A DNA stretch of 57,451 nucleotides from a virus, in the IMG/VR virus record IMGVR_UViG_3300046059_000043, positions 1 to 57,451 of that record; one strand, given 5' to 3'. The translations under genes and the position numbers were made by a program. Below, piece by piece: positions 13,250-54,401 of the stretch. Under the pieces are notes generated by a model. It was not told where the DNA came from. It ran no database searches and saw only the letters and a list, made by a program, of their open reading frames with translations. The stretch's first letter is position 1; each line of letters starts with the position of its first letter.

Positions 13250-13254
13250 CTGCT

Positions 13255-13812: not shown

Positions 13813-13817
13813 ACCCG

Positions 13818-27582: not shown

Positions 27583-29031
27583 ATGAAAACGCGAATCACA
27601 ACCTTTCTCTGCGCGGTCCTTGGGGCCGTAGCGGTAGGTGTCGCCCTGGCCCTACCTGCCGAGGCCGCAGACACGCTTTCTCGTCTCGCTTCGGATCTGA
27701 TGAGCGCTCAGGCCGACCCTGGGGTCCTCCTGGCGGAGATGGCGCTCCCTGCCGCCACGAAGGAGAAGATCGACGACATCAAGAAAAACATGAAGGAGCT
27801 TCTGGACCCGGACGACGGCCTGATGGCGAAGGTGGGCACCATCGAGGGGCGCCTCGAAAACGTGAAGGAAAAGATTGAGAAGCGCTCCCTCGACAACGCT
27901 GAGTGGGTCGACGAGCTCAATGAGGCGATCAAGGAGCAGAAGATTAAGGAGGTCATGGAGGACATGTCCGAGGAGCTCCATGAGCGCATGGACGAGATCG
28001 AGAACCTCGGTGAGCTGGGCAATGGCAAGGCGGGCGGGTCCACGGGCCAGAAGATTGCCGAGAGCTTCAAGTCCGCCTACGAAAGCGCCTCGGACCCCGT
28101 CCGGGGGAAGTGGAGCGCGGACCTCTCCGGGATGCTGCTGAAGGAGATCACGAACGTCAGCGGCTCGGCGGGGCCGGCCATCGTGGAGCAGCAGCAGGAC
28201 GAGATCGTCGGCACCTCTCTCCGAGAGGTCACGATCTTCGACCTGCTGGATTCGGTCCCGGTGTCCACCGACACGGTCGACTTCGTGCGCGTGAAGGCGG
28301 TCACCGACAACGCAGGCAGCCAGCCCGGCCAAGGCGGCACCGTCCCGTTCAGCGACTGGACCTTTGAGGAGGTCAGCAAGAAGATCGAGACGATCATGAT
28401 GAAGGTGCGGGCCGCCCAGCAGGTCCTCGAAGACGAGCAGCGGCTCGAAAACTTCGTCCGCACAGAGCTGCGCCGATACCTCCTGATTGAAGCCGAAAAT
28501 CAGATCATCACCGGCGACGGCGTCGGCAACAACCTGCTCGGCCTCGTCCCGCAGTCGGTCGATTACGACAACAACTTGGAGGTCTCGGTCGTGGACAGTC
28601 CGGTCACGGACCTCGACCGCATCATGGTCGCCATCCTCCAGACGCAGCGCTCCGAGCTTCCGGCCACGGGCATCCTGATGCCCTACCTGAACTGGACCTC
28701 GATCCAGCTCATCAAGGACCAGGAGGGCCGCTACCTGTTCGTCCAGCCGCAGACTGACACGACGCCGCGCCTCTGGGGCCTGCCCGTCAATCCGACCAAC
28801 GCCCTGCCCGAAGGGTCCGCCCACGTCGGCAACTACAACCTGGGCGCCACCTTCTACGACCGGCAGGACACCGAGGTGATGGCCTCGACGGAGGACGAGG
28901 ACAATTTCCAGCGCCTGCTCGTCACGTTCCGCGCCACGATGCGGGGCCAGGTGGCCGTTAAGCGCAAGGAGGCGCTCGTCTCCATCCCGCAGGGCGAGCT
29001 GGACGGCACGGCTCCGACCGCTGGATCGTAA
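27583..29031 (+). CDS. Major capsid protein (HK97 fold) with an N-terminal coiled-coil delta/scaffold domain
   Basis: TIFDLLDSVPVSTDTVDFVRV, LEDEQRLENFVRTELRRYLLIEAENQIITGDGVGNNLLGL and ATFYDRQD...EDEDNFQRLLVTFRATMRGQVAVKRKEA are typical HK97-family blocks. The start is uncertain: 27583, or a downstream Met near 27703. Confidence 0.9.
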   Translation: MKTRITTFLCAVLGAVAVGVALALPAEAADTLSRLASDLMSAQADPGVLLAEMALPAATKEKIDDIKKNMKELLDPDDGLMAKVGTIEGRLENVKEKIEKRSLDNAEWVDELNEAIKEQKIKEVMEDMSEELHERMDEIENLGELGNGKAGGSTGQKIAESFKSAYESASDPVRGKWSADLSGMLLKEITNVSGSAGPAIVEQQQDEIVGTSLREVTIFDLLDSVPVSTDTVDFVRVKAVTDNAGSQPGQGGTVPFSDWTFEEVSKKIETIMMKVRAAQQVLEDEQRLENFVRTELRRYLLIEAENQIITGDGVGNNLLGLVPQSVDYDNNLEVSVVDSPVTDLDRIMVAILQTQRSELPATGILMPYLNWTSIQLIKDQEGRYLFVQPQTDTTPRLWGLPVNPTNALPEGSAHVGNYNLGATFYDRQDTEVMASTEDEDNFQRLLVTFRATMRGQVAVKRKEALVSIPQGELDGTAPTAGS

Positions 29032-29690
29032 TGATGCAGGATCCGGGTAAGCTCATCATCGGCGTCGGGACGGGCCGCTGCGGCACGAAGAGCCTCGTTC
29101 GGCTCTTGGCTCAGCAGCCCGCCACCCATGCCACGCACGAGCGGTTTCAGGACCGCGTGCGCTGGAACTGCCCAAAGAACCTGTGGCCCCTCCGGCTCTG
29201 GCGGGACACGGCTCAGCAGGAGGGGCCACCCGTTCGCGCGGAGGTGGCCCTTCACTGGACGCCCCACATTCGGGCGTTTCTCAAGTGGGCCGATCAGGAG
29301 GGCCGAACCCTCCGTGTCGTGGGCCTGAAGAGGAGCCGAGAGGAGACCATCGATTCCTACATGCGGTGGAAGCCCGATGCGGATCACTGGTCGTATCACG
29401 GCCATCGGTCACAGGCGACCGACGACTGGGACCACTGCTACCCGCCCGAGATGGAGGCGGACTCGAAGCGGGAGGCGATCGGCCTGTTTTGGGACCGCGT
29501 GTATTCGGAACTGGAGTCTATCGACGACGAGCGAGTGAAAGTCTTCAGGACTGAGGACCTGAACACTGAGGAGGGGGTCCGCTCTATCCTCAGCCACTGC
29601 GGCTACGAGGACCCCGTCGTAGACGTGGGAATCCAGATCCAAGCTCCTACCATCGAGGACGCCCGCAACTCGACGCAATGGGAGAGCTGA
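29031..29690 (+). CDS. Sulfotransferase-like protein (219 aa)
   Basis: IIGVGTGRCGTKSLVRLL resembles the PAPS 5'-phosphosulfate-binding loop (RSGTT type). VVGLKRSREETIDSY resembles the 3'-phosphate-binding R...S element. Its ATG overlaps the capsid stop (TAATG). Confidence 0.55.
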   Translation: MMQDPGKLIIGVGTGRCGTKSLVRLLAQQPATHATHERFQDRVRWNCPKNLWPLRLWRDTAQQEGPPVRAEVALHWTPHIRAFLKWADQEGRTLRVVGLKRSREETIDSYMRWKPDADHWSYHGHRSQATDDWDHCYPPEMEADSKREAIGLFWDRVYSELESIDDERVKVFRTEDLNTEEGVRSILSHCGYEDPVVDVGIQIQAPTIEDARNSTQWES

Positions 29691-29714
29691 CTTTCAGGAC
29701 GCTGCATAAAGAAA

Positions 29715-29744
29715 GCCCGCTCCGAGCGGTAACTCGAAGCGGGC
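29715..29744 (+). terminator. Hairpin GCCCGCT-C-CGAG-CGGTAA-CTCG-A-AGCGGGC after the sulfotransferase gene
   Basis: A 7+4 bp interrupted stem read directly. No T-run follows. Lower-GC spacer lies downstream. Confidence 0.35.
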
Positions 29745-29878
29745 ATAAGGTGTGCCAAGGGCGGCACAGACTGAAGTATTACTATGGTAACAAACGAATA
29801 CGACTGGGACAAGCCCGGACGAACACAAGAACACCGACTCTCTGAATCTTCACCTTGCCTTGACGGTGGACGAAGAGG

Positions 29879-30988
29879 ATGATTGACGAGATCGCCCACA
29901 TCATCCCGACGCACGAGCGGCCCGCCGTCGCTCAGCGCCTGGTCGATTCGATCAACCACTTTTATCCGGATTCGCAGGTCTACGTCTGCGACGACAGCCG
30001 CGCGCCAGAAACCTACGACGGGGCGACCGATGTCCCCGCGACGGCCTACGACATCGGCCTCAGCGCAAAGCGCAACCTGCTGGTGCAGGCGTCGACCGAA
30101 CCCTACGTGATGCTCTGGGACGATGACTACGTCTGTACCTCCAACACGGACCTTCGCGTCTTCTATGAGCTTCTCCAGGAGGTAGAGGGCTGTGGGATGG
30201 TCGGGGCCGAGTGGTCGCTCAGCCAAACGCAGGACCGAAATGTCTGGTTTACCGGCCAGCTCATTCCGAACGGCGCAGAAGTTAAGGTCCGCCCGCCCGA
30301 GGGAGACCCTGAGCGCATCGAGACCGGCGTGGGCACCCTCGCCTATCACGAAGTCGACCTGCTCCCGAACTGGTTCATGGCGCGGCGCGAGCTTCTGGAG
30401 ACCGTCCCGTGGGACGAGAAGCTGAAGCTGAACGAGCACCTCGAATTCTTTGCCCGCCTCACCGCGATTCGGGCAGACAGCCCACGCGGGAAGCGGTGGC
30501 GCGAGCGGTGGGAAACGCTCCAGGAGGGTGAGGACCTCTTCAAGGCCAGCCAGAATGGGAAAGCGGTCGTGCAGGCCCAAGCATCCTTCTCAAATAAGAA
30601 CCATCTGGAGCACATCGGCGGCCATGTAGCGACCGGCGACTGGATCGAGGTAGATTCCGACTACGCGGAGGAGCTAATCGACTCGGGGCTCGCCCTCCCG
30701 ATGAGCGCAGTAAGGGACACGCGCCCATTCCCATTGCTAAAGGGAACAGTGGACATGGATATGAAGTGTGTCTTAACGCCAAATACGACATCCCAGCACA
30801 TGCGAAGCGAGGGCCGCGCCTCTGAGGCGTACACGGAGAAGAGGTACCGCCGCGATCAGTTCATGCCGCTTCAGAAGGCAAAGCTCGGCATTCGGACGCG
30901 GGACCTGGTCCAGTGGTCGAGGTATCCGTACCCGTCGCCCGACTTTGACGACCCAGACCCCTCTCTACTCGAACTGCCTTCTGTCTAA
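29879..30988 (+). CDS. Family-2 (GT-A fold) glycosyltransferase with a C-terminal extension (369 aa)
   Basis: IIPTHERPAVAQRLVDSINHFYPDSQVYVCDDS follows the GT2 N-terminal pattern, and LWDDDY is a DxD motif. Confidence 0.7.
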   Translation: MIDEIAHIIPTHERPAVAQRLVDSINHFYPDSQVYVCDDSRAPETYDGATDVPATAYDIGLSAKRNLLVQASTEPYVMLWDDDYVCTSNTDLRVFYELLQEVEGCGMVGAEWSLSQTQDRNVWFTGQLIPNGAEVKVRPPEGDPERIETGVGTLAYHEVDLLPNWFMARRELLETVPWDEKLKLNEHLEFFARLTAIRADSPRGKRWRERWETLQEGEDLFKASQNGKAVVQAQASFSNKNHLEHIGGHVATGDWIEVDSDYAEELIDSGLALPMSAVRDTRPFPLLKGTVDMDMKCVLTPNTTSQHMRSEGRASEAYTEKRYRRDQFMPLQKAKLGIRTRDLVQWSRYPYPSPDFDDPDPSLLELPSV

Positions 30989-38143: not shown

Positions 38144-41100
38144 ATGAGCAACGAGTTTTTCTCTACGTCTCTCCGGACGCGGGCGGGGACACTCGTCTTA
38201 CGAATGATCGATGACCGCCCCAACCCGACCACGATCAACTTCGGCTATTCCGTCGAGAGCGGGATTGACCTGCGCTGGGGCGAAGGTCGGTCAACGGGGT
38301 ATGGGGAACCCGTGGTGGGATCGTTTGCCGACATTACGGTCAAGGACCCGGAGAATCGGTTCCAGCAGTTCTTCGGGACCGAGTTCGATGAGCTAAGCTT
38401 CAAGGCCCTGATTGAGGGGAGCGTTGAGGGGCACCAGTTCCAGTGGAAGGGGCGCGTGCAGCAATCCCAGTTTGACCGCCCCGTAAGCCCGAGGGTCCAG
38501 AGCGAGCGAAAGACGATCCGCCTCTACGATCGGCTCGGGGCGCTGAAGGACAAAAACCCCATCCCCCGCCCGGAGATCCTGGATGTTGAGGAGTTTCTGA
38601 TGCGGACCCTGTTTCCGGCCCAGCCAAACGTTGACATCCTCTACGACATCGATGTGGAGGGGGCCTCATATTTTGACGGGTCCCCCGTCCCGCCGCAGGA
38701 GTGGTACCCCACCACCCGGCGCCCAGCCACCCGAGACGTGGGGGACACAGACGACGTGGACGATGAAGGCATCGGAGGGGGCTCCCTCCGCGAGCAGTTG
38801 GAGACGTTTGCGGGGCGCCTCGGCCTCAAGGTGTGGCAGGAGCCGTTTACGGGCACGTTCCACGTGGTGCCCCGCTTTCGGGTCGGAGAAGAGATCACGG
38901 ATGCCACCCGCATCACGTCGAACGGCTATCCCCTCGACGATAGCGCAACGCCCAGTTTCGACCGCTCGGCGACCATCCCTCAGCTTCTGGTTCAGGACCC
39001 GCCGCTGCGGGCGGAAAATCAGGACCGTTACCAGTCGGTCGAGGGGGTCAAGAAGGTGACCGTTGAGATCGAAAACTCGCCTCTCCTGAAGAACCCGCAC
39101 TTCAAGCTTTACGAATTTGTAAACAGCCGCACGGGGAGCCTGGAGGACTTCACGGCGGACTTTCTGTTCTGGGAGCAGGCCGAGAACCCGTACTTTGCGC
39201 AGAAGATGCAGGTGCTGTGGCCGTACAACAACCGCGTCTGGCGGAGCGAAGAGGAGGCAAACGACTACGTGGGCCTCAATGTCGTTGAGGACGACAATCA
39301 GCTCTCCCTGCTGCGGCAGCAAACGCGGCCCGTCTCGCGGCAGGACTTTCCCGTCACCGCGCGGCTTCTGTACCGAGCCGTGCCCATTGATCCAAACGCT
39401 CAAAAGAACGACGGATACGTCTTCAACCTCATCCTTGAGCACGTCCGAGACGACGGCACAACCAGTAGGGTCGAGACGGAAGAAATCACACCCACCTTTT
39501 TTGGGGCAGGTCTTGAGCCAGCCACCATCCCTGACGAGAAGTTTATTGAGACGCCCGCCTCACGTGAGGCGGGCCAATACAGGGTCACCGTTTCGGGAAA
39601 TAATATCTGGTTCAAGGTCGTCGGATTTGAGCTTACCGTTCAGAACCCGTCAGGGGATAACCTTCTCCTTTCGTCAATTGACATCACCCCCACCGACAAC
39701 GAGAAAGGGCGGAAAGAAGTCCAGATTAGCGATGATACCTTCTACTTCAACGGGGAGCTAAATCGGCTGAAGAATCCCCTCGGGCGAACCCAGTTTATCG
39801 AGAACTGGGAGAAAGAAACGCAACCGACGGTGCAGCCGATTGACTGGTCCAGCCCCCGCCTTGGCCGCAACTACGACAACCTGTATAAGTATCGGGCCGT
39901 CGCTCGGCTCGCCCAGCAGCCCCCCGGCACCGATGCGCTACAGACCCTGGTGGTGCCTGGCATCTTGACGCCAGGGCGAGCCATCGACATCCAGGATGAG
40001 GGGCGCCTCATTTTTGCCGGTGGGCGGACCGTGCACCTGACCGGTGAGGAGACGGGCACGACGGAACTCAACGACATTGTCGTCCCTGAGGTCCTTTCTG
40101 ATCCGATCGACCCTGGGGCTCGCCCAGAGGCGCCGGACATCCTTCTGACCTCGTTCGCCACGTACGACCTGACCGCGCAGGACGCGAGCCGAATCGAGGG
40201 GTACAAGCTGTCTCGCCGGAACGCGCCCGACGCGCCGGAAACGGAAGTTGAGCAGGCGGCGAGTCAGAATAGCCCTGAGAGCGTCGCGGATCCGAACCCG
40301 GCACCCGGCATGAACCTACATGTCGCGCGGACCTACAACTCGAACGGCGACAGCCCGCCCTCCCGCGAGGCTTTGCAGCTTCCCTCCGGCTGGTATAAAG
40401 ATGGGGATCCCGAGTTTTCGCCGAATCCCATTCCGAGCCCATCGGCAGGCGCGTCTAATGCCGCCCTGATCGACGGGGAGATGTACATTTTTGGCGGCAT
40501 AGACGGCTCTGGGCAGCACGCGCGCTGCTATAAATACGACGTGTGGGCCGACACGTGGACCCAGCTCCCGAATTATCCGGAGGGGCCGACCGAAGGACTT
40601 TTCGCTGCCGCGAGTCCCCCGAACGGCGGGATTATCGTCGGCGGCGGTATTGGCCCGGGCGGCGCTCGGCCTGGGACGCACTTCTGGAACCGATCCGTTC
40701 CGGAGTGGCAGCCGCTCGATAATTTGCCAGAACCGATCGGATACGGCGCCGTGGCCCGAGGGCGCGGCAGCGGAAACTACGAAATTCTGATCGCCCACGG
40801 CGGAGAGGATGGCGCAGGAGCCGCCACAAGCGCCGTGCAGCGGCTGAACTTAAATTCAGGGGCATGGGCTACCCTAAGCGACGCGCCCTTCTCAGAGCGT
40901 CGTCACGGCGCGGTCTACAGGCAGAGCGATGACCTGTGGTATGTGTTCGGCGGGGCGGAGGACCGCTCGCGCCTGTGGCAGTTCAACGCAAGGCAGGACG
41001 CGTGGTCATCGGTTGGGAGCGCCCCGCCCACGCCCGTATCGGAGTACGGAATCGCGTACTCAAACGCACAAGACTCTGCGTTCCTGATTGGCGGGACGCC

Positions 41101-41476
41101 CAGCGGGGGCGGCCAGGCCGAGCAGCCGCAGGAGTATTCGTTCTCCGCAGGCGCGTGGACGGAGCACGCCGGAATGCCGACTCCCAGAAGCGAGGCGCGG
41201 GGCGTCTTCATCGACGGCTTTGATGTTCTGTTCGCGGTCGGCGGGGACGGTGGCTCGCCGACGGGCATCAATGAGGTGTATGTCCTCGGGCTCAACCTCA
41301 AAAAGTCGGGCAGCGAGCCGACGTGGACGAGCTGTCAGGACTACACCGTGGATGAGCCGCTCACCGAAGAAAACGCGCCCACGTGGACGAGCTGCCAGAA
41401 CTACACCGTGACCGCCGAAACCGCAAACACGGCACCGCAGTGGACGAGCTGTCAGGATTATACGACCTCTGAATGA
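38144..41476 (+). CDS. Large tail/baseplate protein with a C-terminal Kelch-type beta-propeller and three terminal PTWTSCQDYT modules (1110 aa)
   Basis: Repeated Kelch-like blades (MYIFGGIDGSG...YKYDVWADTWTQLP; LWYVFGGAEDRSRLWQFNARQDAWSSV; FLIGGTP...YSFSAGAWTEHAGMP). It directly follows the tape measure gene. Confidence 0.75.
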   Translation: MSNEFFSTSLRTRAGTLVLRMIDDRPNPTTINFGYSVESGIDLRWGEGRSTGYGEPVVGSFADITVKDPENRFQQFFGTEFDELSFKALIEGSVEGHQFQWKGRVQQSQFDRPVSPRVQSERKTIRLYDRLGALKDKNPIPRPEILDVEEFLMRTLFPAQPNVDILYDIDVEGASYFDGSPVPPQEWYPTTRRPATRDVGDTDDVDDEGIGGGSLREQLETFAGRLGLKVWQEPFTGTFHVVPRFRVGEEITDATRITSNGYPLDDSATPSFDRSATIPQLLVQDPPLRAENQDRYQSVEGVKKVTVEIENSPLLKNPHFKLYEFVNSRTGSLEDFTADFLFWEQAENPYFAQKMQVLWPYNNRVWRSEEEANDYVGLNVVEDDNQLSLLRQQTRPVSRQDFPVTARLLYRAVPIDPNAQKNDGYVFNLILEHVRDDGTTSRVETEEITPTFFGAGLEPATIPDEKFIETPASREAGQYRVTVSGNNIWFKVVGFELTVQNPSGDNLLLSSIDITPTDNEKGRKEVQISDDTFYFNGELNRLKNPLGRTQFIENWEKETQPTVQPIDWSSPRLGRNYDNLYKYRAVARLAQQPPGTDALQTLVVPGILTPGRAIDIQDEGRLIFAGGRTVHLTGEETGTTELNDIVVPEVLSDPIDPGARPEAPDILLTSFATYDLTAQDASRIEGYKLSRRNAPDAPETEVEQAASQNSPESVADPNPAPGMNLHVARTYNSNGDSPPSREALQLPSGWYKDGDPEFSPNPIPSPSAGASNAALIDGEMYIFGGIDGSGQHARCYKYDVWADTWTQLPNYPEGPTEGLFAAASPPNGGIIVGGGIGPGGARPGTHFWNRSVPEWQPLDNLPEPIGYGAVARGRGSGNYEILIAHGGEDGAGAATSAVQRLNLNSGAWATLSDAPFSERRHGAVYRQSDDLWYVFGGAEDRSRLWQFNARQDAWSSVGSAPPTPVSEYGIAYSNAQDSAFLIGGTPSGGGQAEQPQEYSFSAGAWTEHAGMPTPRSEARGVFIDGFDVLFAVGGDGGSPTGINEVYVLGLNLKKSGSEPTWTSCQDYTVDEPLTEENAPTWTSCQNYTVTAETANTAPQWTSCQDYTTSE
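41318..41467 (+). repeat. Three in-frame copies of the P(T/Q)WTSCQ(D/N)YT module (periods of 60 and 57 nt)
   Basis: PTWTSCQDYTV at 41318-41350, PTWTSCQNYTV at 41378-41410, PQWTSCQDYTT at 41435-41467. Confidence 0.9.
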
Positions 41477-41505
41477 CCGTTTGACAACTGGCTGGCCCGA
41501 CCCTT

Positions 41506-42057
41506 ATGGCCGACAAGAAAGAGCGTGCGTCCGGCACTGGAGAGACGCTTGGCGAGAGCCAATCAGAGGTAGACAACCTGAAGAGCGTCTACACCCTGCG
41601 CGCAGAGCAGAGCGACAGCGAGATCGTTTTGCCGAAGGCGACGGCGGGTAACGTGACCGAAGTTGCGCTCTACGTCATCCGCGTCGATGACGGATCGAGC
41701 GGACATGAGGCACGGATCGCCACGAAGACGTACCCGATTCAGATTTCGCCGGGGCAAGAGGCGCCCAAGTATCGGCTGAGCGGCTTCGAGATGGTGCGCC
41801 TTTACGCTGTCCAGGCCAGGTGGTACGTTATAGCCCGCAGCAGCCTCACTCGCCTCGGCTCAGTCGGTAAGGTTCCCCCCCTGGAGTCGAAGGGGTCGGG
41901 TGCCCAGCCCGAGGTCGTGAGCGACTTGGAGGAGCTGAAGCGGGCGGTGAATCAGCTCATTGAGCGAAGCCGGGAGCAGGGCATCACCGCGGGAAGTGGC
42001 CGCCTGGACACCGACTTCTCCGAATCCGGCTCTATCGTGACGAGCACCGCTTTTTGA
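41506..42057 (+). CDS. hypothetical tail-module protein (183 aa)
   Basis: ORF track, position within the tail genes. Confidence 0.55.
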   Translation: MADKKERASGTGETLGESQSEVDNLKSVYTLRAEQSDSEIVLPKATAGNVTEVALYVIRVDDGSSGHEARIATKTYPIQISPGQEAPKYRLSGFEMVRLYAVQARWYVIARSSLTRLGSVGKVPPLESKGSGAQPEVVSDLEELKRAVNQLIERSREQGITAGSGRLDTDFSESGSIVTSTAF

Positions 42058-42089
42058 GCAACGCCTCTTGAAAAACATCGGATCTGACA

Positions 42090-43088
42090 ATGGCTGTCAC
42101 CACGATTGTCGCGTATGACGCCGACGACAACAAGGTCGACATCTACACGACCGACGACCCGGCGGAGGGCGGCGGCTCAAAACTTCAGGACATCGTTGAC
42201 GCGCTCGGGGAGGAGACTGCGACGGGCGACGAGGCGGACTCGACCGCAGCCGCTGCCCTGAACGCGCGCCTCGCGGCCCTCACCGACGCCCTGCGGTCGG
42301 GCCAGGACAACGACGCCCTCCGCGTGGCGGTAGCCGAGGACATTCTGTCCGGGCAACTGAGCGTTTCCGTCGATGGGCAGAGCGGTTTCTTTTCGGTTAC
42401 CGACAACAACTTCGTCCTCTCGGCGAACGACGGGGTTGACATCGGCGACGTGGGGATCGAAGACATTGCCCCCGTCACCGGGCAGGCAACGAAATCAGGG
42501 TCTCTGCCCGTGACGCTGGCCTCTGACAGAGACACGGTGCCGACCGCCCTTCAGGACCTCTCGCCCGTGACCGGCCAGTCGGCAAAGTCGGGTTCGGTGC
42601 CGGTCACCCTTGCCTCCGACGAGGACAACCTTGGAACCCAAATCGAAGCCATTTCCTCCGTGACTGGCGAGGCGCAGGAGTCCGGCTCCCTGCCCGTCAC
42701 GCTTGCCACCGATGAAAGCGCCGTCCCCGTTGAGCAGCAGACGGCGGTGAAGGTGGAGGACTCCGGGGGCACCGATATTGACCCGGCAAAAAACGTAGAC
42801 GGGGCCTCCGCCACCGCGAGCGTCACCGACACGTCCAACGCCACAATTCAAGTCCCCGATGGTCGGACCACGATCACCGTGATGGTGGAGGCGAGCGGCG
42901 GAGCGGTAGACACGACCGTTGAGGTGTCCACAGGCGGAACCAACTGGTACGAGAAGACCTCCGTGTTTAACTCGAACGTTTCCGACGGAGATGCGGAGGC
43001 GGAGTCGTTCCAGACGGGGGCCGAATACGTCCGCGCAAGCGGCGATGCGAACGTGGGGAGGGTCGAGGTCGCGGCCAAAGGCGCTTGA
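42090..43088 (+). CDS. Tail fibre-like protein with three 31-aa tandem repeats (332 aa)
   Basis: Repeats IAPVTGQATKSGSLPVTLASDRDTVPTALQD, LSPVTGQSAKSGSVPVTLASDEDNLGTQIEA and ISSVTGEAQESGSLPVTLATDESAVPVEQQT. Confidence 0.6.
   Translation: MAVTTIVAYDADDNKVDIYTTDDPAEGGGSKLQDIVDALGEETATGDEADSTAAAALNARLAALTDALRSGQDNDALRVAVAEDILSGQLSVSVDGQSGFFSVTDNNFVLSANDGVDIGDVGIEDIAPVTGQATKSGSLPVTLASDRDTVPTALQDLSPVTGQSAKSGSVPVTLASDEDNLGTQIEAISSVTGEAQESGSLPVTLATDESAVPVEQQTAVKVEDSGGTDIDPAKNVDGASATASVTDTSNATIQVPDGRTTITVMVEASGGAVDTTVEVSTGGTNWYEKTSVFNSNVSDGDAEAESFQTGAEYVRASGDANVGRVEVAAKGA
42465..42743 (+). repeat. 3 x 93-nt in-frame tandem repeat
   Basis: Repeat starts at 42465, 42558 and 42651. Conserved core: VTG-x4-SGS(L/V)PVTLA(S/T)D. 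Confidence 0.85.
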
Positions 43089-43149
43089 GGGCGGGATAAC
43101 CTGTTTCCACCATACCTGAGCCTGCTTCACGAACCGAGAGGTTCACCTA

Positions 43150-45087
43150 ATGTCAAAGCTGGTCACGAAGAGACTTTTTGCGCGGGTTGTGGTGTGGCAG
43201 CCCGCGACGGGGGCCGTCATCGACCTCCCGTCCCGATCGGTAACGGCAGGTGGGGGCTTCTCTCGGGACGAGAATCGAGCGGTGATGTCCGACGGCTCCG
43301 CCGAGCCGACCAGCCGCAGTCATAGTCTGAGGATCCCGATGTCGCACGAGGAGGCGCGTGTGGCAAGTCGGTTGTTCCGGCTCAATAGCTGTCCCGCGCG
43401 GGCACTGCTCATTGGCGTGGAGGGAACCGAGCACGTCCTCTGGCACGAGGAGACGCGCGTCAACATCGAAAGTTCAGAGACTGACCCAGGCCAGTCCGCG
43501 AAGGACCTCGTGCTGGAGTCCTCGATCTTCAACCCGGCGATCTTTCGCGGCATGAACCTGATTGAGGGGGTTCCTTGGCAGGCAACGGAGGCCAAAGACA
43601 CTGGCTCCGGCTTTGAGATGCGGTATCCGGGCGGCGGGTACCGGCCCGGCTACGAGGGACCCGCGTTCGGCGTAGGATCTGAAGACGTGGAGGTCGACAT
43701 GCTCGGCGTCCCGAGCGGCCTTACAGAGGCGACCGTTCAATTTGAGTTTCCGGCGTGGGGATCCGTCCTCAAGCTCGGCGCCGTCACCGGATACACGCTC
43801 GATAATGGAATCCTGAAGGCCCTGGACTGGAATGAGTCGGTGCTCGCGTTCGTCGGTGCGGGGCAGGAGCTTGAGGTTCCGGATCGCACGTGGTACGTAG
43901 AGATTGGGCTGGGCGACGCTGGGGGGCGGCCCCGCCTCGATGTGGTTCGGCCTGGCGTGGGGCAGGGCAAGTTTCTGACCGGAAACCGCGAGAAGGCGTG
44001 CGAGCGCTCCGCCGAGGAGCCGCCGTGGGACGAGATCCCTGAGCCGAACGAGCCGCCGCGGTGGGTGCGGAAAGAGCCGCTCGTGTACGGACTCGACAAC
44101 ATCCCGCCCACGTGGACGAGCTGTGAGGATTACACGACCTCTGAGGAGGGCACGGGTGGAGACAATTCACCGCCCACGTGGACGAGCTGCCAGGATTATA
44201 CTACGACGGAGGAGCAGGCTGAGCCGCCGGAGGAGACGTTCACGTACACGGCCCCGAACGTAGGGCCAACGAGTTACATCTTTACCGCCAGCGGCGGATT
44301 CTCGCGCTTTGATTACTTCCCGGCTCAGTCAAATTACGAGAACTATTTGGATCAGGACGCCGCCTACGACCTGGCCGTTGACGAGTCTGCGGGCTACGTA
44401 TTCCTTGCCATCCAGGAGGCCATTCGGCGCTTCGACTTGAGCGGCGGCTCCGGGACCAATGTGCTGCAAGAGTCCGGCAACGATCCAGTCGGGATTGCCG
44501 TCGACCCGCTCACCCAAGAGGTCTACTTCAGCTACCAGCAGCAAACGGGCATTTACAAGATTGCCTACGACGGGAGCGGGAAGACGCAGGTTGCCAGCGA
44601 CGCGGGGGAGGCGTATGCCCTCGGCGTGGCCCCGGACGGGGGCGACGGCGCGTACATCTTCGGCGTGAGTCCGACGGCGCAAGAGATTGCCCGCTGGAAC
44701 GCGGACGGGTCCGGGAAGAAGGTGCTGAAGGACCTTTCCGGAACGGTCTATTACCTCCAGCGCAACTGCCACCTGCACCTGGAGGGGGCGTGGGTCTTTT
44801 ACCAGCAGTCCAAGTCTGACTCACAGAGAAACGTGCGCCGCATCTCGATGGGCGGGGGCACCGATGAAGGAATTTTTCTTGAGGCGTCTACGTACACGAT
44901 CGCTGACCACCAGTATTGGACCGTGCTTCAAGAGGAGGATAAGTGGATTCAGCTCGAATCCGCAGAGGACGGAGCAACGCGAGTAGAAGAGCGAAACTTG
45001 GATGGGAGCGGTACTACATCCACGACCCTCTCAGGCACCTCCTATGACCTCGGAGAACGGATTGCTTCTGCACAGCTTGTCAGCTAA
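43150..45087 (+). CDS. Tail protein with two central PPTWTSC(E/Q)DYTT modules and a C-terminal YWTD/NHL-like beta-propeller (645 aa)
   Basis: Modules at 44104-44139 and 44170-44205. Propeller-like blades: GIAVDPLTQEVYFSYQQQTGIYKIAYDGSGKTQV; YALGVAPDGGDGAYIFGVSPTAQEIARWNADGSGKKVL. Confidence 0.65.
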   Translation: MSKLVTKRLFARVVVWQPATGAVIDLPSRSVTAGGGFSRDENRAVMSDGSAEPTSRSHSLRIPMSHEEARVASRLFRLNSCPARALLIGVEGTEHVLWHEETRVNIESSETDPGQSAKDLVLESSIFNPAIFRGMNLIEGVPWQATEAKDTGSGFEMRYPGGGYRPGYEGPAFGVGSEDVEVDMLGVPSGLTEATVQFEFPAWGSVLKLGAVTGYTLDNGILKALDWNESVLAFVGAGQELEVPDRTWYVEIGLGDAGGRPRLDVVRPGVGQGKFLTGNREKACERSAEEPPWDEIPEPNEPPRWVRKEPLVYGLDNIPPTWTSCEDYTTSEEGTGGDNSPPTWTSCQDYTTTEEQAEPPEETFTYTAPNVGPTSYIFTASGGFSRFDYFPAQSNYENYLDQDAAYDLAVDESAGYVFLAIQEAIRRFDLSGGSGTNVLQESGNDPVGIAVDPLTQEVYFSYQQQTGIYKIAYDGSGKTQVASDAGEAYALGVAPDGGDGAYIFGVSPTAQEIARWNADGSGKKVLKDLSGTVYYLQRNCHLHLEGAWVFYQQSKSDSQRNVRRISMGGGTDEGIFLEASTYTIADHQYWTVLQEEDKWIQLESAEDGATRVEERNLDGSGTTSTTLSGTSYDLGERIASAQLVS

Positions 45088-45090
45088 GTT

Positions 45091-45435
45091 ATGGCCCGCC
45101 AACTGACGAAAAACGCAAACGGGAACCTCCAGTTTACCGAGAAGGTGTTCGATGATGACGAGGAGAACGTGGACCACCCCCTCCCCTCAATCGTCGAGCT
45201 TGACGAGATTGACGGGCAGCCCGTCCCGAGTGCAGCGCGCACGCCGGATTGGCTTCAGGTAACTATCAATGAACTCGGGGTCGTGGTCGCGGAGGGGCGC
45301 TGGGAGGAGGAACTCACCGTGACGATCCAAAATCCGGACGAGAACTTGGAGGCGGACACGCTCTATCAGTTTCTCTTTCGGGCCACCGACGGTACCGATA
45401 CGTCTGACCACCGCGTTACACTTGAAGTTGACTGA
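45091..45435 (+). CDS. Small Ig/cadherin-like domain protein (114 aa)
   Basis: NGNLQFTEKVFDDDE...YQFLFRATDGTDTSDHRVTLEV. Paralogous to the N-terminus of the next ORF. Confidence 0.5.
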   Translation: MARQLTKNANGNLQFTEKVFDDDEENVDHPLPSIVELDEIDGQPVPSAARTPDWLQVTINELGVVVAEGRWEEELTVTIQNPDENLEADTLYQFLFRATDGTDTSDHRVTLEVD

Positions 45436-45462: not shown

Positions 45463-46587
45463 ATGCCAGAGCTCACAGACCCCGACAACGACGGCATTTT
45501 AGAGTTTACCCAGACCGTCGAAGACGTGGACGGGGATTCTCTGTCCATCACGGGGGAGCTGGACCAGATCAACGGCACCACTCAAAGTGGTAGTGACCGT
45601 AACCCGAGCTGGTTTTCGTTCACAACATCGAGTTCCCTCTCCGGCGGCACTCGAACGGTGGATGTGAATATCCAGATCAACGCCTCTGAACTCGGGGGTG
45701 CGGGCACGACGTATACGTTCGAGCTTTATGCCGATGATGGGGTCAGCACGTCGACTTGCACGTTCACCCTTGAGGTCACGTCTTCATCCCCCAACACACT
45801 CTTAATCAGCTATAATGATAATGAATTTCAAACTTATGACATAAAAAATGGTACGTTTAATACGGTAATTCCGAGCGCACCGGGTGCAAACGATTATATT
45901 GTAGCGTTTGCAAAAGACTCTGCAAATGAAAGGGTTTGGTTTGCCTTAAAAGTAGACGGGGTAGACAAGGTAGAATATTACACGGCCCCATTCAGCGACC
46001 TTTCAAACTGGACAAAACAGTTTGAAGATACAACGTCATCATTAGATATAAGGGAACTTCATTACGATAATGAAAAGGACAGACTACCAGCAAGCGATAA
46101 CCAAACAGATGAGACTATTTATTATGATACTAACGGGAACCGTAACGTGGTGCGTGGTTTCACGGTTTTTCCTTTGGCATTTGATGAGAAAAGAGGAGTT
46201 TTTGGAAGTGAGGACGACATCTATGAAATTAGACACTATGATTATGGAAACAACGTGAAAGATGCTGATACGTCGGCGATTTCTACCGGCGCTGCTTTTT
46301 ACCACCCAGTGCTCGATGAATTTGTTTACTATGAAGGAAATAACAACACAATATCTAGATACGACCCTAACGATTCATATAATAAAACTGATGTAAACAA
46401 TTCATTCCAGCTTGGAAATGCTGGAATCCATGCGCCAAATGAAGGCCCAGACGCAGCCGCATGGACTGCAGACGAAAGCTCCAACGGTGAGCTTGTGGTC
46501 ATTGATTTAAGTGACGGCTCTACGATAAGAGATACAGGCGATGTTCCAACTGCCGCCCCAGATGATTATCTCTTAATCAACAAGTAG
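45463..46587 (+). CDS. Tail/receptor-binding candidate: Ig-like N-terminal domain fused to a low-GC C-terminal domain (374 aa)
   Basis: N-terminus DGILEFTQTVEDVDGD...YTFELYADDGVSTSTCTFTLEV. From about 45795 the DNA becomes AT-rich and the protein Asn/Tyr/Asp/Lys-rich. Confidence 0.6.
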   Translation: MPELTDPDNDGILEFTQTVEDVDGDSLSITGELDQINGTTQSGSDRNPSWFSFTTSSSLSGGTRTVDVNIQINASELGGAGTTYTFELYADDGVSTSTCTFTLEVTSSSPNTLLISYNDNEFQTYDIKNGTFNTVIPSAPGANDYIVAFAKDSANERVWFALKVDGVDKVEYYTAPFSDLSNWTKQFEDTTSSLDIRELHYDNEKDRLPASDNQTDETIYYDTNGNRNVVRGFTVFPLAFDEKRGVFGSEDDIYEIRHYDYGNNVKDADTSAISTGAAFYHPVLDEFVYYEGNNNTISRYDPNDSYNKTDVNNSFQLGNAGIHAPNEGPDAAAWTADESSNGELVVIDLSDGSTIRDTGDVPTAAPDDYLLINK

Positions 46588-46639: not shown

Positions 46640-47167
46640 ATGCCTGAAACCGCAGAGACAAGCAATCTTGAAGAGCGTATCGCCAACGAAACCGAGGGAC
46701 TCAGCCCCGAGGACCTCGACGGCATCTCCGAGTCGATGGCCTTTAGAAAGGCCACCGCCAAACTCCTCGCAGGCGAGCTGACCGTGCCGGAGTGGGAGTG
46801 GTTCGTGAAGCGAGAATTGAACCAGCTCGTGGACATCCCCTTCGTCCCCGAGGCCGTCGAAAAGGGCATCTTTGATCAGGCCCTTGAGGTCTTGGGGACG
46901 GCGCTGGAGGGCCTCCTCACCGGCGGGTCCGGCCAGCTCGACGAGGTGACGGGTGACCCCTCGTTCCGCAGCGCCACGCTTGACCTGCTTGCGGGGAAGA
47001 CTACAGTTCCTGAGTGGATGAGCGTGGTCGGAAGGCTTTTGAGCGAGCGAGTCGATGTCCCCTATGTGCCGGAGATGGCGGAGGACATTGCCTTCGAGAA
47101 GGGGATCGAACTTCTCGGTTCAGCGCTGCACGGCCTCCTCGAAGACGGAAGCGAAGACGCGAGCTGA
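46640..47167 (+). CDS. hypothetical protein with an internal ~60-aa duplication (175 aa)
   Basis: AFRKATAKLLAGELTVPEWEWFVKRELNQLVDIPFVPEAVEKGIFDQALEVLGTALEGLL pairs with SFRSATLDLLAGKTTVPEWMSVVGRLLSERVDVPYVPEMAEDIAFEKGIELLGSALHGLL. Confidence 0.6.
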   Translation: MPETAETSNLEERIANETEGLSPEDLDGISESMAFRKATAKLLAGELTVPEWEWFVKRELNQLVDIPFVPEAVEKGIFDQALEVLGTALEGLLTGGSGQLDEVTGDPSFRSATLDLLAGKTTVPEWMSVVGRLLSERVDVPYVPEMAEDIAFEKGIELLGSALHGLLEDGSEDAS

Positions 47168-52861: not shown

Positions 52862-53152
52862 ATGGCTGTAAACGGCTTTGCAGACGCGACCATCCTTCTC
52901 GACTACTCGACCGAGGACCCGGAACCAGTGGACGTAAAAGACCCCTACGCCGCCGACCAGCGGTGGGTGTACGCGACGGGGATTAGCGCCGACACCTTTA
53001 ACATTGAGTACCGGCCCAACACGGACCGAGCCTGGGTCACCGTCGTGGCCGATGTATCCAACGGCGTCCAGACCATGCAGCGGAGGCCGGAGGGGCAGTA
53101 TCGGGTCACGCGGAGCGGCAACACCGACCAGGCCACCATCGCCTTCATTTAG
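52862..53152 (+). CDS. hypothetical beta-rich acidic protein (96 aa), on the opposite strand to its neighbours
   Basis: ATG at 52862 inside ORF-track entry 52772..53152. Third codon positions are strongly G/C in this frame. The overlapping minus ORF 52838..53260 is Gly/Val/Pro/Arg-rich, as expected of an antisense shadow. Confidence 0.6.
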   Translation: MAVNGFADATILLDYSTEDPEPVDVKDPYAADQRWVYATGISADTFNIEYRPNTDRAWVTVVADVSNGVQTMQRRPEGQYRVTRSGNTDQATIAFI

Positions 53153-53174: not shown

Positions 53175-53297
53175 ATGCGCCAGACGGTCATAGAGTCGGT
53201 GAACGTGAGAGTCGTTGCGGAAGCGGTCCGGAGCGTGGGAGTGCAGAACACCCCGCCCACGTGGTCCTCGTGCCAAGACTACACGTATGCAAAGTGA
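53175..53297 (+). CDS. Unannotated 40-aa ORF ending in the tail-protein module (MRQTVIESVNVRVVAEAVRSVGVQNTPPTWSSCQDYTYAK)
   Basis: Hand translation. It is below the ORF-track cutoff. PPTWSSCQDYT (53253-53285) matches the module repeated in ORFs 38144..41476 and 43150..45087. Confidence 0.5.
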   Translation: MRQTVIESVNVRVVAEAVRSVGVQNTPPTWSSCQDYTYAK

Positions 53298-53330
53298 CGG
53301 AGGGGGGCTGTAGCCGGTAAGCGTCAGCAG

Positions 53331-53422
53331 AAAAAACGCGGGTGGGGGTTGTCGGTCGCCAAAAAAAGTCCGGTGGGCACCCGCCCACCCGCTTGCGGCA
53401 CGCGAAAAAATGTCGGTGGGGG
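53331..53422 (-). promoter_or_regulatory. Three tandem A-run/CGGTGGGG boxes with no leftward gene downstream
   Basis: AAAAAACGCGGGTGGGGG (53331-53348), AAAAAAAGTCCGGTGGGC (53361-53378) and AAAAAATGTCGGTGGGGG (53405-53422). The middle copy overlaps a GGTGGGC-ACCC-GCCCACC hairpin. Confidence 0.4.
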
Positions 53423-53508
53423 CTGATTAATCGCGCGCGCAAAAAGAAAAGAACACGGCCCGCGGGTCGGCGGGCTAAGCGGCGTCGGTCAGGCGCCCAC
53501 ACGCAGAA

Positions 53509-53569
53509 AGGGCCGCCCCGAACGAACCTACAGGTTCGAAAGCGACAGGTAGGCTCCTAGGGCGGCCCT
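53509..53569 (-). terminator. 10-bp inverted repeat AGGGCCGCCC/GGGCGGCCCT enclosing a GAACCTACAGGTTC palindrome
   Basis: Arms at 53509-53518 and 53560-53569, with the inner palindrome at 53524-53537. It lies 40 nt past the stop of minus ORF 53610..54392. On the minus strand it is followed by TTTCT. Confidence 0.4.
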
Positions 53570-53609
53570 TCTATGCGGATGGGAGAAGAAAGCGGAGCTC
53601 ACGAGCGCA

Positions 53610-54392: not shown

Positions 54393-54401
54393 TCGGGGCG
54401 C

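What the first reader, a model, noticed from the sequence alone, without database searches (positions are those of the whole stretch)
41318..44205. A 10-aa module P(T/Q)W(T/S)SC(Q/E)(D/N)YT repeated five times in two different tail proteins
ORF 38144..41476 ends with three copies: EPTWTSCQDYTV, APTWTSCQNYTV and APQWTSCQDYTT. They are separated by short acidic linkers. ORF 43150..45087 carries two more (PPTWTSCEDYTT and PPTWTSCQDYTT) between its N-terminal domain and its beta-propeller. Four copies share the exact 17-mer CCCACGTGGACGAGCTG. The third copy and a sixth copy elsewhere (53253-53285) differ at synonymous or conservative positions. That pattern points to selection on the peptide rather than on a DNA site. 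Each copy has one Cys, one Trp, and a Tyr preceded by Asp/Asn in an acidic Ser/Thr-rich context. Asp at -1 with flanking acidic residues is the classical context for tyrosine O-sulfation by eukaryotic TPST and Xanthomonas RaxST. The Thr/Ser residues could also be O-glycosylation sites. The module could therefore be the substrate tag for the phage sulfotransferase/GT. Alternatives are a docking or disulfide clip that joins fibre components, or a metal or receptor-binding unit. I do not recognise it as a described motif.
Basis: partly seen in the sequence, partly recalled or inferred. Interest (0 to 1): 0.8.

Follow-up and report, generated by a model that had tools for sequence, protein, structure and literature searches.

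The report
Undescribed short repeat in phage tail-tip proteins
The repeated peptide is real, but it is one phage clade's version of a wider, undescribed 16-residue repeat that follows the anchor domain of a tail-tip protein, and it looks like an assembly or attachment element rather than a tag for sulfation or glycosylation.

Summary
Six in-frame copies of P[TQ]W[TS]SC[QE][DN]YT exist, and synonymous codon variation shows the peptide is under selection. Only three copies, not four, share the exact 17-mer. A seventh, degenerate copy (NEPPRWVRKEPLVYG) was missed.

The window is a siphovirus-like phage from hypersaline samples. Its nearest cultured relatives are Salinibacter ruber phages.

The exact motif is absent from viral, metagenome and genome collections. 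A profile-free search with the ORF2 N-terminal domain found a family of tail-tip proteins. In its nearest members, 2-11 tandem copies of N-x-[PA]-P-x-[WF]-x-x-[R/C/K]-x-[DN]-[LVY]-x-[YFWTV] follow the ~295-aa domain directly. In that wider family Tyr is usually Leu or Val, Cys is usually Arg, and Ser/Thr are not conserved.

The sulfotransferase-like/GT2 gene pair is equally conserved in a Salinibacter phage that has no module. The modification-tag idea is therefore not supported.

The ORF1 tail varies from 0 to 3 copies among close relatives. The module co-occurs with downstream head proteins that share an Ig-like adaptor domain.

Best reading: a structural neck or docking repeat used to assemble a tail tip with several heads. 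No Pfam, PHROG or PDB match exists. The mechanism is inferred, not shown.

The parts
38144..41476 (+). ORF1, 1110 aa. First gene after the tape-measure gene. It has a large N-terminal tail-tip part, a six-bladed Kelch propeller (about aa 770-1050) and a 62-aa C-terminal tail carrying three modules.
   Evidence: Homologues P0005-P0012 end right after the propeller (...EV.VL) with 0, 1, 2 or 3 modules.
41309..41356 (+). Module copy 1 (GSEPTWTSCQDYTVDE), ORF1 aa 1056-1071.
41369..41416 (+). Module copy 2 (ENAPTWTSCQNYTVTA), ORF1 aa 1076-1091.
41426..41473 (+). Module copy 3 (NTAPQWTSCQDYTTSE), the last 16 residues of ORF1.
43150..45087 (+). ORF2, 645 aa. Conserved ~295-aa N-terminal (anchor) domain, then a neck with three modules, then a six-bladed YWTD/LDL-receptor class B propeller.
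   Evidence: The N-domain family has 79 representative clusters. The propeller matches LRP2 at 5.7e-83 and LRP6 at 7e-29 and matches LRP6/LRP4 by fold. In the AF2 model (mean pLDDT 83.6) the neck, aa 300-349, scores only 42-46.
44047..44091 (+). Module copy 0, degenerate (NEPPRWVRKEPLVYG), ORF2 aa 300-314.
   Evidence: Module HMM score about 10 bits. The equivalent copy is NEPPEWKQKEDLVYG in P0014 and NIPPEWDNREDVLFDE in P0019.
44098..44145 (+). Module copy 4 (NIPPTWTSCEDYTTSE), ORF2 aa 317-332.
44164..44211 (+). Module copy 5 (NSPPTWTSCQDYTTTE), ORF2 aa 339-354. Its last residues (aa 351-354) are modelled as a beta strand at the start of the confidently modelled C-terminal part.
53175..53297 (+). 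40-aa ORF that ends with module copy 6 (NTPPTWSSCQDYTYAK, 53247-53294). It follows a 96-aa ORF (52862-53152) in a small plus-strand island between minus-strand genes.
   Evidence: JGI calls the ORF as a gene on Ga0496842_01740. It gives the best module HMM score, 28.6 bits. No homologue was found in phage records. Expression is not shown.
45091..45435 (+). 114-aa protein made of a single Ig-like 'adaptor' domain. It is a candidate partner of the modules (inferred).
   Evidence: The same ~105-aa domain starts every downstream head protein in module-bearing relatives.
45463..46587 (+). 374-aa head protein: adaptor domain (aa 1-110) plus a C-terminal domain, probably a beta-propeller by analogy with the L013 and L016 paralogues. 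No family matched it here. Its base composition is atypical.
29031..30988 (+). Sulfotransferase-like gene (29031-29690) and GT2 glycosyltransferase gene (29879-30988), directly after the capsid gene. They are not linked to the module.

Best explanation
**What it is.** PTWTSCQDYT is the core of a ~16-residue module. It is one halophage clade's sequence variant of an undescribed tandem repeat with consensus N-x-[PA]-P-x-[WF]-x-x-[R/C/K]-x-[DN]-[LVY]-x-[YFWTV]. The ancestral home of the repeat is the neck that directly follows the conserved ~295-aa N-terminal anchor domain of a siphophage tail-tip protein (ORF2 here).

**What it most likely does.** It is a protein-protein assembly element. It is a short beta-prone peptide with three conserved apolar or aromatic positions (6, 12, 14), set in a flexible acidic linker in this clade. 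It either zips with other copies or, more likely, serves as a docking site for the Ig-like adaptor domain that starts every downstream receptor-binding head protein. On this reading it ties several heads (Kelch, YWTD and other propellers, LamG) to one tail tip.

**The extra copies.** The three copies at the ORF1 C-terminus and the one on the 40-aa ORF are recent, evolutionarily labile additions of the same element.

**Shown:** the repeat family, its position, its copy-number variation, the conservation pattern and the co-occurrence with the adaptor domain.

**Inferred:** physical docking or zipping, and whether the 40-aa ORF is expressed.
For: 1. **Family.** phmmer of ORF2 aa 1-365 against 1.84 billion representatives gave 79 hits. 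The seven nearest clusters beyond the window's own (P0013-P0019, 35-45% identity) all carry 2-11 modules right after the N-domain. More distant members that were inspected end at ~300 aa with none.
2. **Architectures.**
   - P0018 is the N-domain plus 11 contiguous modules with a 16-18 aa period and nothing else.
   - P0015 and the L009/L010 proteins end just after the modules.
   - P0016 and P0019 have an extra single copy at the extreme C-terminus, after their propeller.
3. **Conserved positions.** N1 (34/39), P4 (35/39), W/F6 (39/39), D/N/S11 (34/39), L/Y/V/F12 (38/39) and an aromatic or beta-branched residue at 14 (36/39). The positions that suggested chemistry (Cys, Tyr, Thr/Ser) vary.
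4. **Lability.** ORF1 tails carry 3, 2, 1 or 0 copies in relatives 100-38% identical. One relative at 83% identity has none.
5. **Purifying selection on the peptide.** 51 synonymous against 20 non-synonymous codon differences.
6. **Structure model.** AF2 with a 51-sequence alignment models both ORF2 domains confidently. It leaves aa 300-349 at pLDDT 42-46. That is expected for a segment that orders only on oligomerisation or partner binding.
7. **Co-occurrence.**
   - At least one protein starting with the same ~105-aa adaptor domain, and up to four, lies downstream of the module-bearing protein in the window, L001, L005, L006, L007, L009, L010, L011, L013/L014 and L016.
   - Two relatives without modules, Salinibacter phage 14_1 and L015, show no such domain. 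L015 carries a large, unrelated 686-aa protein instead.
Against: - No multimer model, contact map or experiment supports docking.
- The co-occurrence is confounded by phylogeny: one positive clade and two negatives.
- Module and adaptor numbers show no simple stoichiometry (11 against 4 in L013; 7 against 2 in the window).
- Low pLDDT is equally compatible with a merely flexible linker.
- The contiguous 11-copy array in P0018 looks more like a self-contained fibrous or solenoid fold than a string of docking peptides.
- Cys is retained in most copies of the window's clade, and module Cys counts are even in the five loci counted (6, 2, 2, 1+1, 0). The explanation does not need or predict this.
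Confidence: 0.5

Rival explanations
1. Self-associating fibrous shaft repeat. The modules of three chains fold together into a trimeric beta structure (triple beta-spiral-like or similar). This forms a rigid neck between anchor and head. C-terminal copies form short whiskers.
For: - P0018 has 11 contiguous copies with a 16-18 aa period.
- The module always sits between the anchor domain and the head.
- Pro is conserved at positions 3/4 and apolar residues at 6, 12 and 14. This resembles the turn Pro/Gly and alternating hydrophobics of the triple beta-spiral consensus (PMC3150272).
- Monomer AF2 gives low confidence, as is usual for obligate-trimer fibres.
Against: - Only 3 conserved apolar positions per repeat, against 5 in the beta-spiral consensus.
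- In the window the copies are separated by acidic or Gly-rich spacers of variable length.
- Single isolated copies at C-termini and on a 40-aa peptide are hard to explain as a shaft.
- No sequence match to any solved fibre.
Confidence: 0.2
2. Glycan- or receptor-binding repeat. The conserved Trp, Asn/Asp, Arg and aromatic residues form repeated low-affinity sugar-binding sites, in the manner of choline-binding or cell-wall-binding repeats. Extra copies raise avidity for the host envelope.
For: - The conserved residue types (W/F, N, D/N, R, Y/W) are typical of carbohydrate-binding sites (established general knowledge).
- In P0018 the array is the distal end of the protein.
- Copy number varies quickly between close relatives, as expected for host-interaction elements.
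Against: - No match to any Pfam cell-wall or carbohydrate-binding repeat, even at E <= 1.
- In most proteins the array is proximal to a dedicated head domain, not distal.
- Arg is replaced by Cys, Ser or Ala in the window's clade.
Confidence: 0.12
3. Post-translational modification tag. The module is the acceptor for Tyr O-sulfation and/or Ser/Thr O-glycosylation by the phage sulfotransferase-like and GT2 proteins.
For: - A weak Sulfotransfer_3 match (E 0.0045, below cut-off) and a GT2 lie next to the capsid gene.
- Asp or Asn precedes Tyr in an acidic context.
- Phage-encoded glycosyltransferases are taken in the literature as a sign of virion protein glycosylation in mycobacteriophages. The held announcement PMC11256854 infers capsid glycosylation from two such genes. 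The primary demonstration rests on my own knowledge and was not read here.
Against: - Tyr, Cys and Ser/Thr are not conserved in homologous modules.
- Cys becomes Ala or Ser in close relatives.
- Both enzymes are conserved at 60% and 52% identity in Salinibacter phage 14_1, which has no module. They are also present in L013, whose modules are WDNRGSV-type.
- The enzymes sit in the head part of the operon. The capsid is therefore the more obvious target.
Confidence: 0.06
4. Inert linker sequence spread by duplication or recombination. The module has no specific function. It marks a domain-swap junction and has been copied by short-homology recombination.
For: - The module lies exactly where ORF2 homologues change architecture: fused propeller against stop codon.
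- Three copies share an identical 17-mer.
- ORF1 homologues are mosaic: P0010 and P0007 share a near-identical Kelch part but differ elsewhere.
Against: - The excess of synonymous over non-synonymous differences among copies.
- The module pattern is conserved down to 35% identity of the host protein.
- The DNA word is not conserved in relatives.
Confidence: 0.07

Closest known systems
Triple beta-spiral shaft repeats of the adenovirus fibre and reovirus sigma1 (consensus a-o as given in PMC3150272)
   Same: A short (~15-16 aa) tandem repeat in a viral attachment protein, placed between an anchoring part and a globular head. It has a conserved turn proline and alternating apolar residues, and the number of repeats varies.
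   Different: Only three conserved apolar positions instead of five. It has a conserved Asn and Trp that the beta-spiral consensus lacks. In this clade there are spacers between copies. Isolated copies occur at C-termini. There is no sequence match to solved fibres. The trimeric state is untested.
Branched or multi-receptor-binding-protein tail tips in which an upper baseplate or adaptor protein holds separate RBPs (lactococcal TP901-1 BppU-BppL; G7C gp63.1/gp66; CBA120 TSP1-4). These are recalled from my own knowledge, not read here.
   Same: A tail-tip protein with a conserved N-terminal anchor, followed by several separately encoded head proteins that share one N-terminal attachment domain. 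The heads are swapped between relatives.
   Different: In those systems attachment is through folded domains, not a tandem 16-aa peptide repeat. Binding of the module to the adaptor domain here is an inference from co-occurrence only.
Short linear motifs bound by beta-propellers (Keap1 Kelch with ETGE/DLG peptides; LRP6 YWTD propeller with NXI-motif peptides, e.g. PDB 3sov, which appears among the fold hits)
   Same: Both proteins that carry the module also carry a Kelch or a YWTD propeller. Both propeller types are known peptide-binding platforms. The module starts with a conserved Asn and is embedded in a flexible linker.
   Different: There is no evidence that these phage propellers bind the module. 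P0015, P0018 and the L009/L010 proteins have modules but no propeller in the same chain.
T4-type tail-fibre 'His boxes' (short motifs repeated in several fibre genes). Recalled from my own knowledge.
   Same: A short conserved peptide repeated in more than one fibre gene of a single phage, at boundaries where domains are exchanged.
   Different: His boxes coordinate metal through HxH. The module has no His, and its only potential ligand (Cys) is not conserved.
Virion glycosylation in mycobacteriophages: phage glycosyltransferases with capsid or tail proteins as presumed acceptors. PMC11256854 was seen; the primary work rests on my own knowledge.
   Same: A glycosyltransferase gene inside the structural operon, and acidic or Ser/Thr-rich C-terminal extensions on virion proteins.
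   Different: Here the enzyme genes are conserved whether or not the module is present, and the candidate acceptor residues are not conserved.

Membership tests
Tyrosine O-sulfation substrate (TPST / RaxST type) | The acceptor Tyr is conserved wherever the homologous peptide is conserved. | tested here: not met
   Position 12 of the module is Tyr in only 13 of 39 instances. It is Leu in 14, Val in 10, and Phe or Ala in one each (sequences).
Tyrosine O-sulfation substrate (TPST / RaxST type) | Acidic residue next to Tyr, in an acidic context. | tested here: met
   D or N at -1 in all six window copies, with acidic spacers. The same position is also D/N/S before Leu or Val in relatives, so it is not specific to Tyr.
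Tyrosine O-sulfation substrate (TPST / RaxST type) | A dedicated sulfotransferase that occurs together with the substrate. | tested here: not met
   ORF 29031-29690 matches Sulfotransfer_3 only below threshold (17.7 bits against 27). Its homologue is 60% identical in phage 14_1, which lacks the module.
Phage virion O-glycosylation tag | A glycosyltransferase encoded in the structural operon. | tested here: met
   GT2 at 29879-30988, E 3.6e-7, above the Pfam cut-off.
Phage virion O-glycosylation tag | Ser/Thr acceptors are conserved, and the tag co-varies with the enzyme. | tested here: not met
   The Thr/Ser positions are E/D/N/Q in relatives. The GT2 is present in phage 14_1 without the module and in L013 with WDNRGSV-type modules.
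Phage virion O-glycosylation tag | Modified peptides detected in virions. | not testable with these tools
   Needs MS/MS of purified virions.
Triple beta-spiral shaft repeat | About 15-residue tandem period. | tested here: met
   The period is 16-18 aa in P0018. It is 17-22 aa in window ORF2 and 19-20 aa in the ORF1 tail.
Triple beta-spiral shaft repeat | Hydrophobic residues at positions c, e, g, k and m, and Pro/Gly at turn position j (PMC3150272). | tested here: inconclusive
   Only three positions (6, 12, 14) are consistently apolar or aromatic. Pro at 3/4 can be placed at j in one register. Positions g and k are not apolar.
Triple beta-spiral shaft repeat | Homotrimeric fibre. | not testable with these tools
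   Only monomer AF2 was available. The neck has pLDDT 42-46.
Any curated repeat, domain family or solved structure (Pfam-A, PHROGs, PDB sequences) | A significant profile or sequence match over the module array. | tested here: not met
   No Pfam family at E <= 1 for P0018, P0015 or P0016. No PHROG at E <= 0.1. The best PDB sequence match has E 0.95.
Disulfide or metal clip (Cys-dependent) | The Cys is invariant. | tested here: not met
   Cys becomes Ala in P0006 copy 2 and in the L010 neck, and Ser in the P0008 tail. It is Ser or Thr in P0014 and Arg or Lys in most of the family. Even Cys counts per locus are an unexplained hint only.
Docking peptide for the Ig-like adaptor domain (proposed here, not an established family) | Module and adaptor domain occur together across genomes. 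| tested here: met
   Both are present in the window, L001, L005, L006, L007, L009, L010, L011, L013/L014 and L016. Both are absent in L008 and L015. The test is confounded by phylogeny.
Docking peptide for the Ig-like adaptor domain (proposed here, not an established family) | Physical binding of the module to the adaptor domain. | not testable with these tools
   No multimer prediction or experiment was available.

The most novel reading that the evidence does not exclude
The tandem modules are sockets of a plug-and-socket system. Each 16-residue peptide is bound, perhaps by beta-strand addition, by the ~105-aa Ig-like adaptor domain that begins every downstream head protein. A single tail-tip scaffold (ORF2-type neck, ORF1 tail, even a free 40-aa peptide) can then display a variable set of receptor-binding heads. 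This would be a cohesin-dockerin-like way of building and re-assorting multi-receptor phage tail tips. In this clade, Cys-Cys pairing after release might lock the assembly.
Probability: 0.25. Interest if true: 0.6.

Novelty: new variant of a known kind. Interest (0 to 1): 0.35.

Why it matters
- **If the module is a docking or zipper element.** It would explain how this group of halophages, and their wider relatives, attach several interchangeable receptor-binding heads to one tail tip. It would also give a very small (16 aa), portable peptide handle for engineering phage host range or for display.
- **For annotation.** The result defines a previously unnamed repeat and an unnamed N-terminal anchor domain family (79 representative clusters). 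It also shows that an attractive chemical reading (sulfo-Tyr, glycosylation, disulfide) of a short motif can disappear once more distant homologues are lined up.
- **For general biology.** It is a modest finding: a new sequence family of a familiar kind of viral fibre element.

Tried and rejected
- **Exact-motif searches.** The degenerate DNA pattern for P..W[ST][ST]C[QE][DN]YT gave 0 hits in viral contigs. It gave 1 hit in metagenome contigs and 2 in genome contigs. All three are chance matches: one is interrupted by stop codons on both sides, one has stops flanking it, and one lies in an Arg/Gly-rich reading that looks out of frame. None has the flanking module context. A 59-aa motif-only protein search gave nothing. 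The motif as written is therefore clade-restricted.
- **Direct relatives in IMG/VR.** Searches with ORF1 and ORF2 found none. blastn against GenBank phages found none.
- **AF2 of ORF2 with 5 sequences.** Uninformative, mean pLDDT 40. Repeated with 51 sequences.
- **Fold searches.** Searches against BFVD and PDB were dominated by the propeller and did not identify the N-domain.
- **DNA-site or recombination-signal reading.** Rejected as the main explanation. The DNA word is not conserved in relatives, whereas the peptide pattern is.
- **Eukaryotic C-mannosylation sequon (W-x-x-C).** W-T-S-C fits this sequon, which I recall from my own knowledge. I considered it and dropped it because the Cys is not conserved and no candidate enzyme was looked for.
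- **Bacteroidota general O-glycosylation motif D-[ST]-[AILVMT].** Recalled from my own knowledge. It does not fit (D-Y-T), and virions assemble in the cytoplasm.
- **N-glycosylation sequon.** It occurs only in copy 2 (N-Y-T).
- **The 96-aa and 40-aa ORF pair.** No homologue in phage records. It is not conserved at the equivalent place in L011.
- **Weak Caf1-antigen Pfam hit of the 114-aa adaptor protein.** E 0.0096, below cut-off. It prompted the donor-strand idea but is not evidence.

Full report
**1. The observation**

Six in-frame copies of P-[TQ]-W-[TS]-S-C-[QE]-[DN]-Y-T are present exactly where stated (DNA).
- Three copies end ORF 38144-41476.
- Two lie in ORF 43150-45087.
- One ends a 40-aa ORF at 53175-53297.

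The 17-mer CCCACGTGGACGAGCTG is exact in three copies, not four. Copy 1 has one mismatch and copy 3 has three. Seven matches at up to 3 mismatches compare with a mean of 0.35 in shuffles.

Over the ten core codons the six copies differ by 51 synonymous and 20 non-synonymous pairwise codon changes. Several codons are ones that are minor in this genome, such as TGT, GAT and TAT. The peptide, not the DNA word, is what is kept. Flanks outside the module are unrelated. Tandem Repeats Finder sees no DNA tandem repeat at these sites.

**2. Context**

The window has 62% G+C and a moderately acidic proteome. It encodes:
- terminase, portal, capsid and a 1189-aa tape-measure protein;
- a holin and an RNase T-like exonuclease;
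- an integrase, a C5 methyltransferase and two PAPS-reductase-like proteins.

The capsid protein is 41% identical to those of Salinibacter ruber M8 phages from a Mallorcan saltern. These phages are described as Phoenicisalinivirus in PMC11631230.

ORF1 (38144-41476) follows the tape-measure gene. It ends in a six-bladed Kelch propeller.

ORF2 (43150-45087) has a ~295-aa N-domain and a YWTD/LDL-receptor class B propeller. The propeller matches LRP2 at E 5.7e-83 by profile and matches LRP6/LRP4 by fold.

An AF2 model built on 51 sequences has mean pLDDT 83.6. Both domains are confident. The neck that carries the modules (aa 300-349) scores only 42-46.

**3. The motif as written is clade-restricted**

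A degenerate DNA pattern gave no hit in IMG/VR. It gave only three hits in the metagenome and genome collections, and all three are chance matches without the module context. A motif-only protein search gave nothing.

Close homologues of ORF2 (76-96% identity) keep two copies with variation:
- PPTWTNCEDYTT
- PPTWTSCPDYTV
- PPT-LDCGDYTT, with the Trp lost
- PPSWTNCPDYTV

Homologues of ORF1 stop right after the Kelch propeller, or carry tails as follows:
- three copies: the window and P0005;
- two copies: P0006, where the second copy has Cys replaced by Ala;
- one copy: P0008, with Cys replaced by Ser;
- none: P0007 at 83% identity, and P0009-P0012.

The ORF1 tail is therefore a recent and labile add-on, and the Cys is dispensable there.

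**4. The wider family**

phmmer of ORF2 aa 1-365 against 1.84 billion representative proteins found 79 proteins that share the N-domain.

The seven nearest clusters beyond the window's own (P0013-P0019, 35-45% identity) all carry the same kind of short repeat directly after the N-domain:
- NEPPEWKQKEDLVYG / NNPPTWTNSNDYEVSE / NNPPTWTGTNDYETNE in P0014, with no Cys
- NAAPVWENRDNLEF / NIEPDWEDRDNLEY in P0015, which ends there
- NDPPTWEDRDDLLHY / NTAPTFENRDDLVYF in P0016

P0018 has eleven contiguous copies and nothing else. P0016 and P0019 have one more copy at their extreme C-terminus, after the propeller.

An HMM built from 39 instances also detects a seventh, degenerate copy in window ORF2 (NEPPRWVRKEPLVYG, aa 300-314). 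It finds no further credible copies elsewhere in the window.

Column counts give the consensus N-x-[PA]-P-x-[WF]-x-x-[R/C/K]-x-[DN]-[LVY]-x-[YFWTV].
- The window's Cys corresponds to Arg or Lys in 23 of 39 instances.
- Its Tyr corresponds to Leu or Val in 24 of 39.
- Its Thr/Ser positions correspond to Glu, Asp or Asn.

More distant N-domain proteins that were inspected end near residue 300 without any module.

In L009 and L010 the ORF2 homologue is only the N-domain plus modules (339 aa). A different head gene follows. The module therefore sits exactly at a domain fusion/fission point.

**5. The modification-tag idea**

ORF 29031-29690 has a sub-threshold Sulfotransfer_3 match. ORF 29879-30988 is a GT2. 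Both lie just after the capsid gene.

Their homologues are 60% and 52% identical in Salinibacter phage 14_1, and that phage has no module. A GT2 at the same position also occurs in L009 and L013, and the L013 modules lack Tyr, Ser and Thr at the relevant positions.

Since the putative acceptor residues are also not conserved, the idea that the module exists as a sulfation or glycosylation tag is not supported. A clade-specific modification cannot be excluded without mass spectrometry.

**6. What it most likely is**

The pattern fits a structural or assembly repeat rather than a chemical one:
- three conserved apolar or aromatic positions, plus conserved Asn and Pro;
- beta-prone composition;
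- tandem arrays placed between an anchor domain and a head;
- variable copy number.

Two sub-mechanisms are open.

[quoted passage not shown] However, only three of the five apolar positions are matched. No solved fibre, Pfam family or PHROG family matches the array.

*Docking or zipper peptide.* The following favour this:
- flexible acidic spacers in this clade;
- single copies at extreme C-termini after globular heads;
- a copy on a 40-aa ORF;
- the 0-3 copy turnover in ORF1.

I prefer docking because of a further observation. In every module-bearing locus, at least one downstream protein, and up to four, begins with the same ~105-aa Ig-like domain.
- In the window these are the 114-aa ORF 45091-45435 and the N-terminus of ORF 45463-46587.
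- L013 has four paralogous adaptor-plus-propeller proteins.
- L016 has two, L010 has three and L006 has four.

Two relatives without modules, phage 14_1 and L015, show no such domain. L015 instead has a large, unrelated 686-aa protein.

The association is confounded by phylogeny, and no stoichiometry is evident. Docking is therefore an inference with about even odds overall for the assembly-element reading.

**7. Comparison and novelty**

The nearest known things are:
- viral fibre shaft repeats;
- multi-RBP baseplates with adaptor proteins;
- short peptides bound by Kelch and YWTD propellers.

The module is not a demonstrated member of any of these. It is an undescribed sequence family of a familiar kind, a short tandem element in phage attachment proteins. 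Its unusual trait is that it also appears as isolated copies on the ends of other tail proteins.

Interest is moderate to low. It would be higher if the plug-and-socket reading proves right.

**8. Unexplained**

Counts of Cys within modules are even in the five loci where I counted them:
- 6 in the window;
- 2 in L005;
- 2 in L011;
- 1+1 in L009;
- 0 in L010.

This could hint at disulfide pairing between modules after release. The sample is small and the contigs are partial.

Noticed in passing
window 29031-30988: A sulfotransferase-like gene (GxGTGRCGTKSL P-loop; Pfam match below cut-off) and a GT2 gene lie directly after the capsid gene. The pair is conserved at 52-60% identity in Salinibacter phage 14_1. 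A GT2 with a ~209-218-aa gene before it lies at the same place in L009 and L013; L011 has genes of matching size (202 and 389 aa) with no family hit on record. This may be a conserved virion (capsid?) modification module of this phage group.
   Followed up: partly
window 45463-46587: This head gene has a very atypical composition: GC3 0.46 and GC1 0.49, against about 0.75-0.85 and 0.65 in its neighbours. It still keeps the shared adaptor N-domain. It looks like a recently imported receptor-binding head.
   Followed up: partly
window 42090-43088: The 332-aa acidic protein between ORF1 and ORF2 contains three ~31-aa tandem repeats (…PVTGQATKSGSLPVTLASDRDTVP…). Part of it is 47% identical to a region of Salinibacter phage 14_1 (L008 45033-45497).
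   Followed up: no
window 46640-47167: This 175-aa acidic protein is an internal duplication of a ~70-aa unit (…LLAGxxTVPEWxxxVxRxLxxxVDxPxVPExxExxxFxxxxExLGxALxGLL…).
   Followed up: no
P0007 and P0010 (ORF1 homologues): The two proteins share an almost identical Kelch part, yet they are 83% and 51% identical to the window protein overall. This indicates recombination at the boundary between the N-terminal part and the propeller.
   Followed up: no
L009 14713-16626; L010 7686-8705: In these relatives the ORF2 homologue stops right after the modules (339 aa). The next gene encodes an adaptor domain plus a LamG-type head (L010) or a head of similar appearance (L009). A gene fusion or fission has happened exactly at the module.
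   Followed up: yes
window 12425-14720: Two PAPS-reductase-domain genes flank a DUF6011/DUF6166 gene. A C5 cytosine methyltransferase lies at 5696-6739. These may form a DNA-modification cluster. They are not sulfotransferases.
   Followed up: no
window 9359-9943 (+), overlapped by ORF 9338-10141 (-): There is a strong Phage_integrase match (E 5.8e-36) on the plus strand. My composition-based gene picking had preferred the minus-strand ORF there. The phage may be temperate.
   Followed up: no
L016 (NCBI assembly GCA_000829845.1, contig AKVG01000004.1): A module-bearing relative (P0016) lies on a 35-kb contig of a genome assembly deposited at NCBI. It could be a prophage or a co-assembled phage, and it might give a host clue for the wider family.
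   Followed up: no
window modules; L005, L009, L010, L011: The number of Cys residues inside modules is even in each locus counted (6, 2, 1+1, 0, 2). This is unexplained. It may hint at disulfide pairing between modules.
   Followed up: partly
L012 (Ga0496842_01740) against window 53300-54400: The contig that carries the identical 40-aa ORF has a different gene downstream (204 aa, against 260 aa in the window). Genome variants of this phage therefore coexist in the same sample.
   Followed up: no
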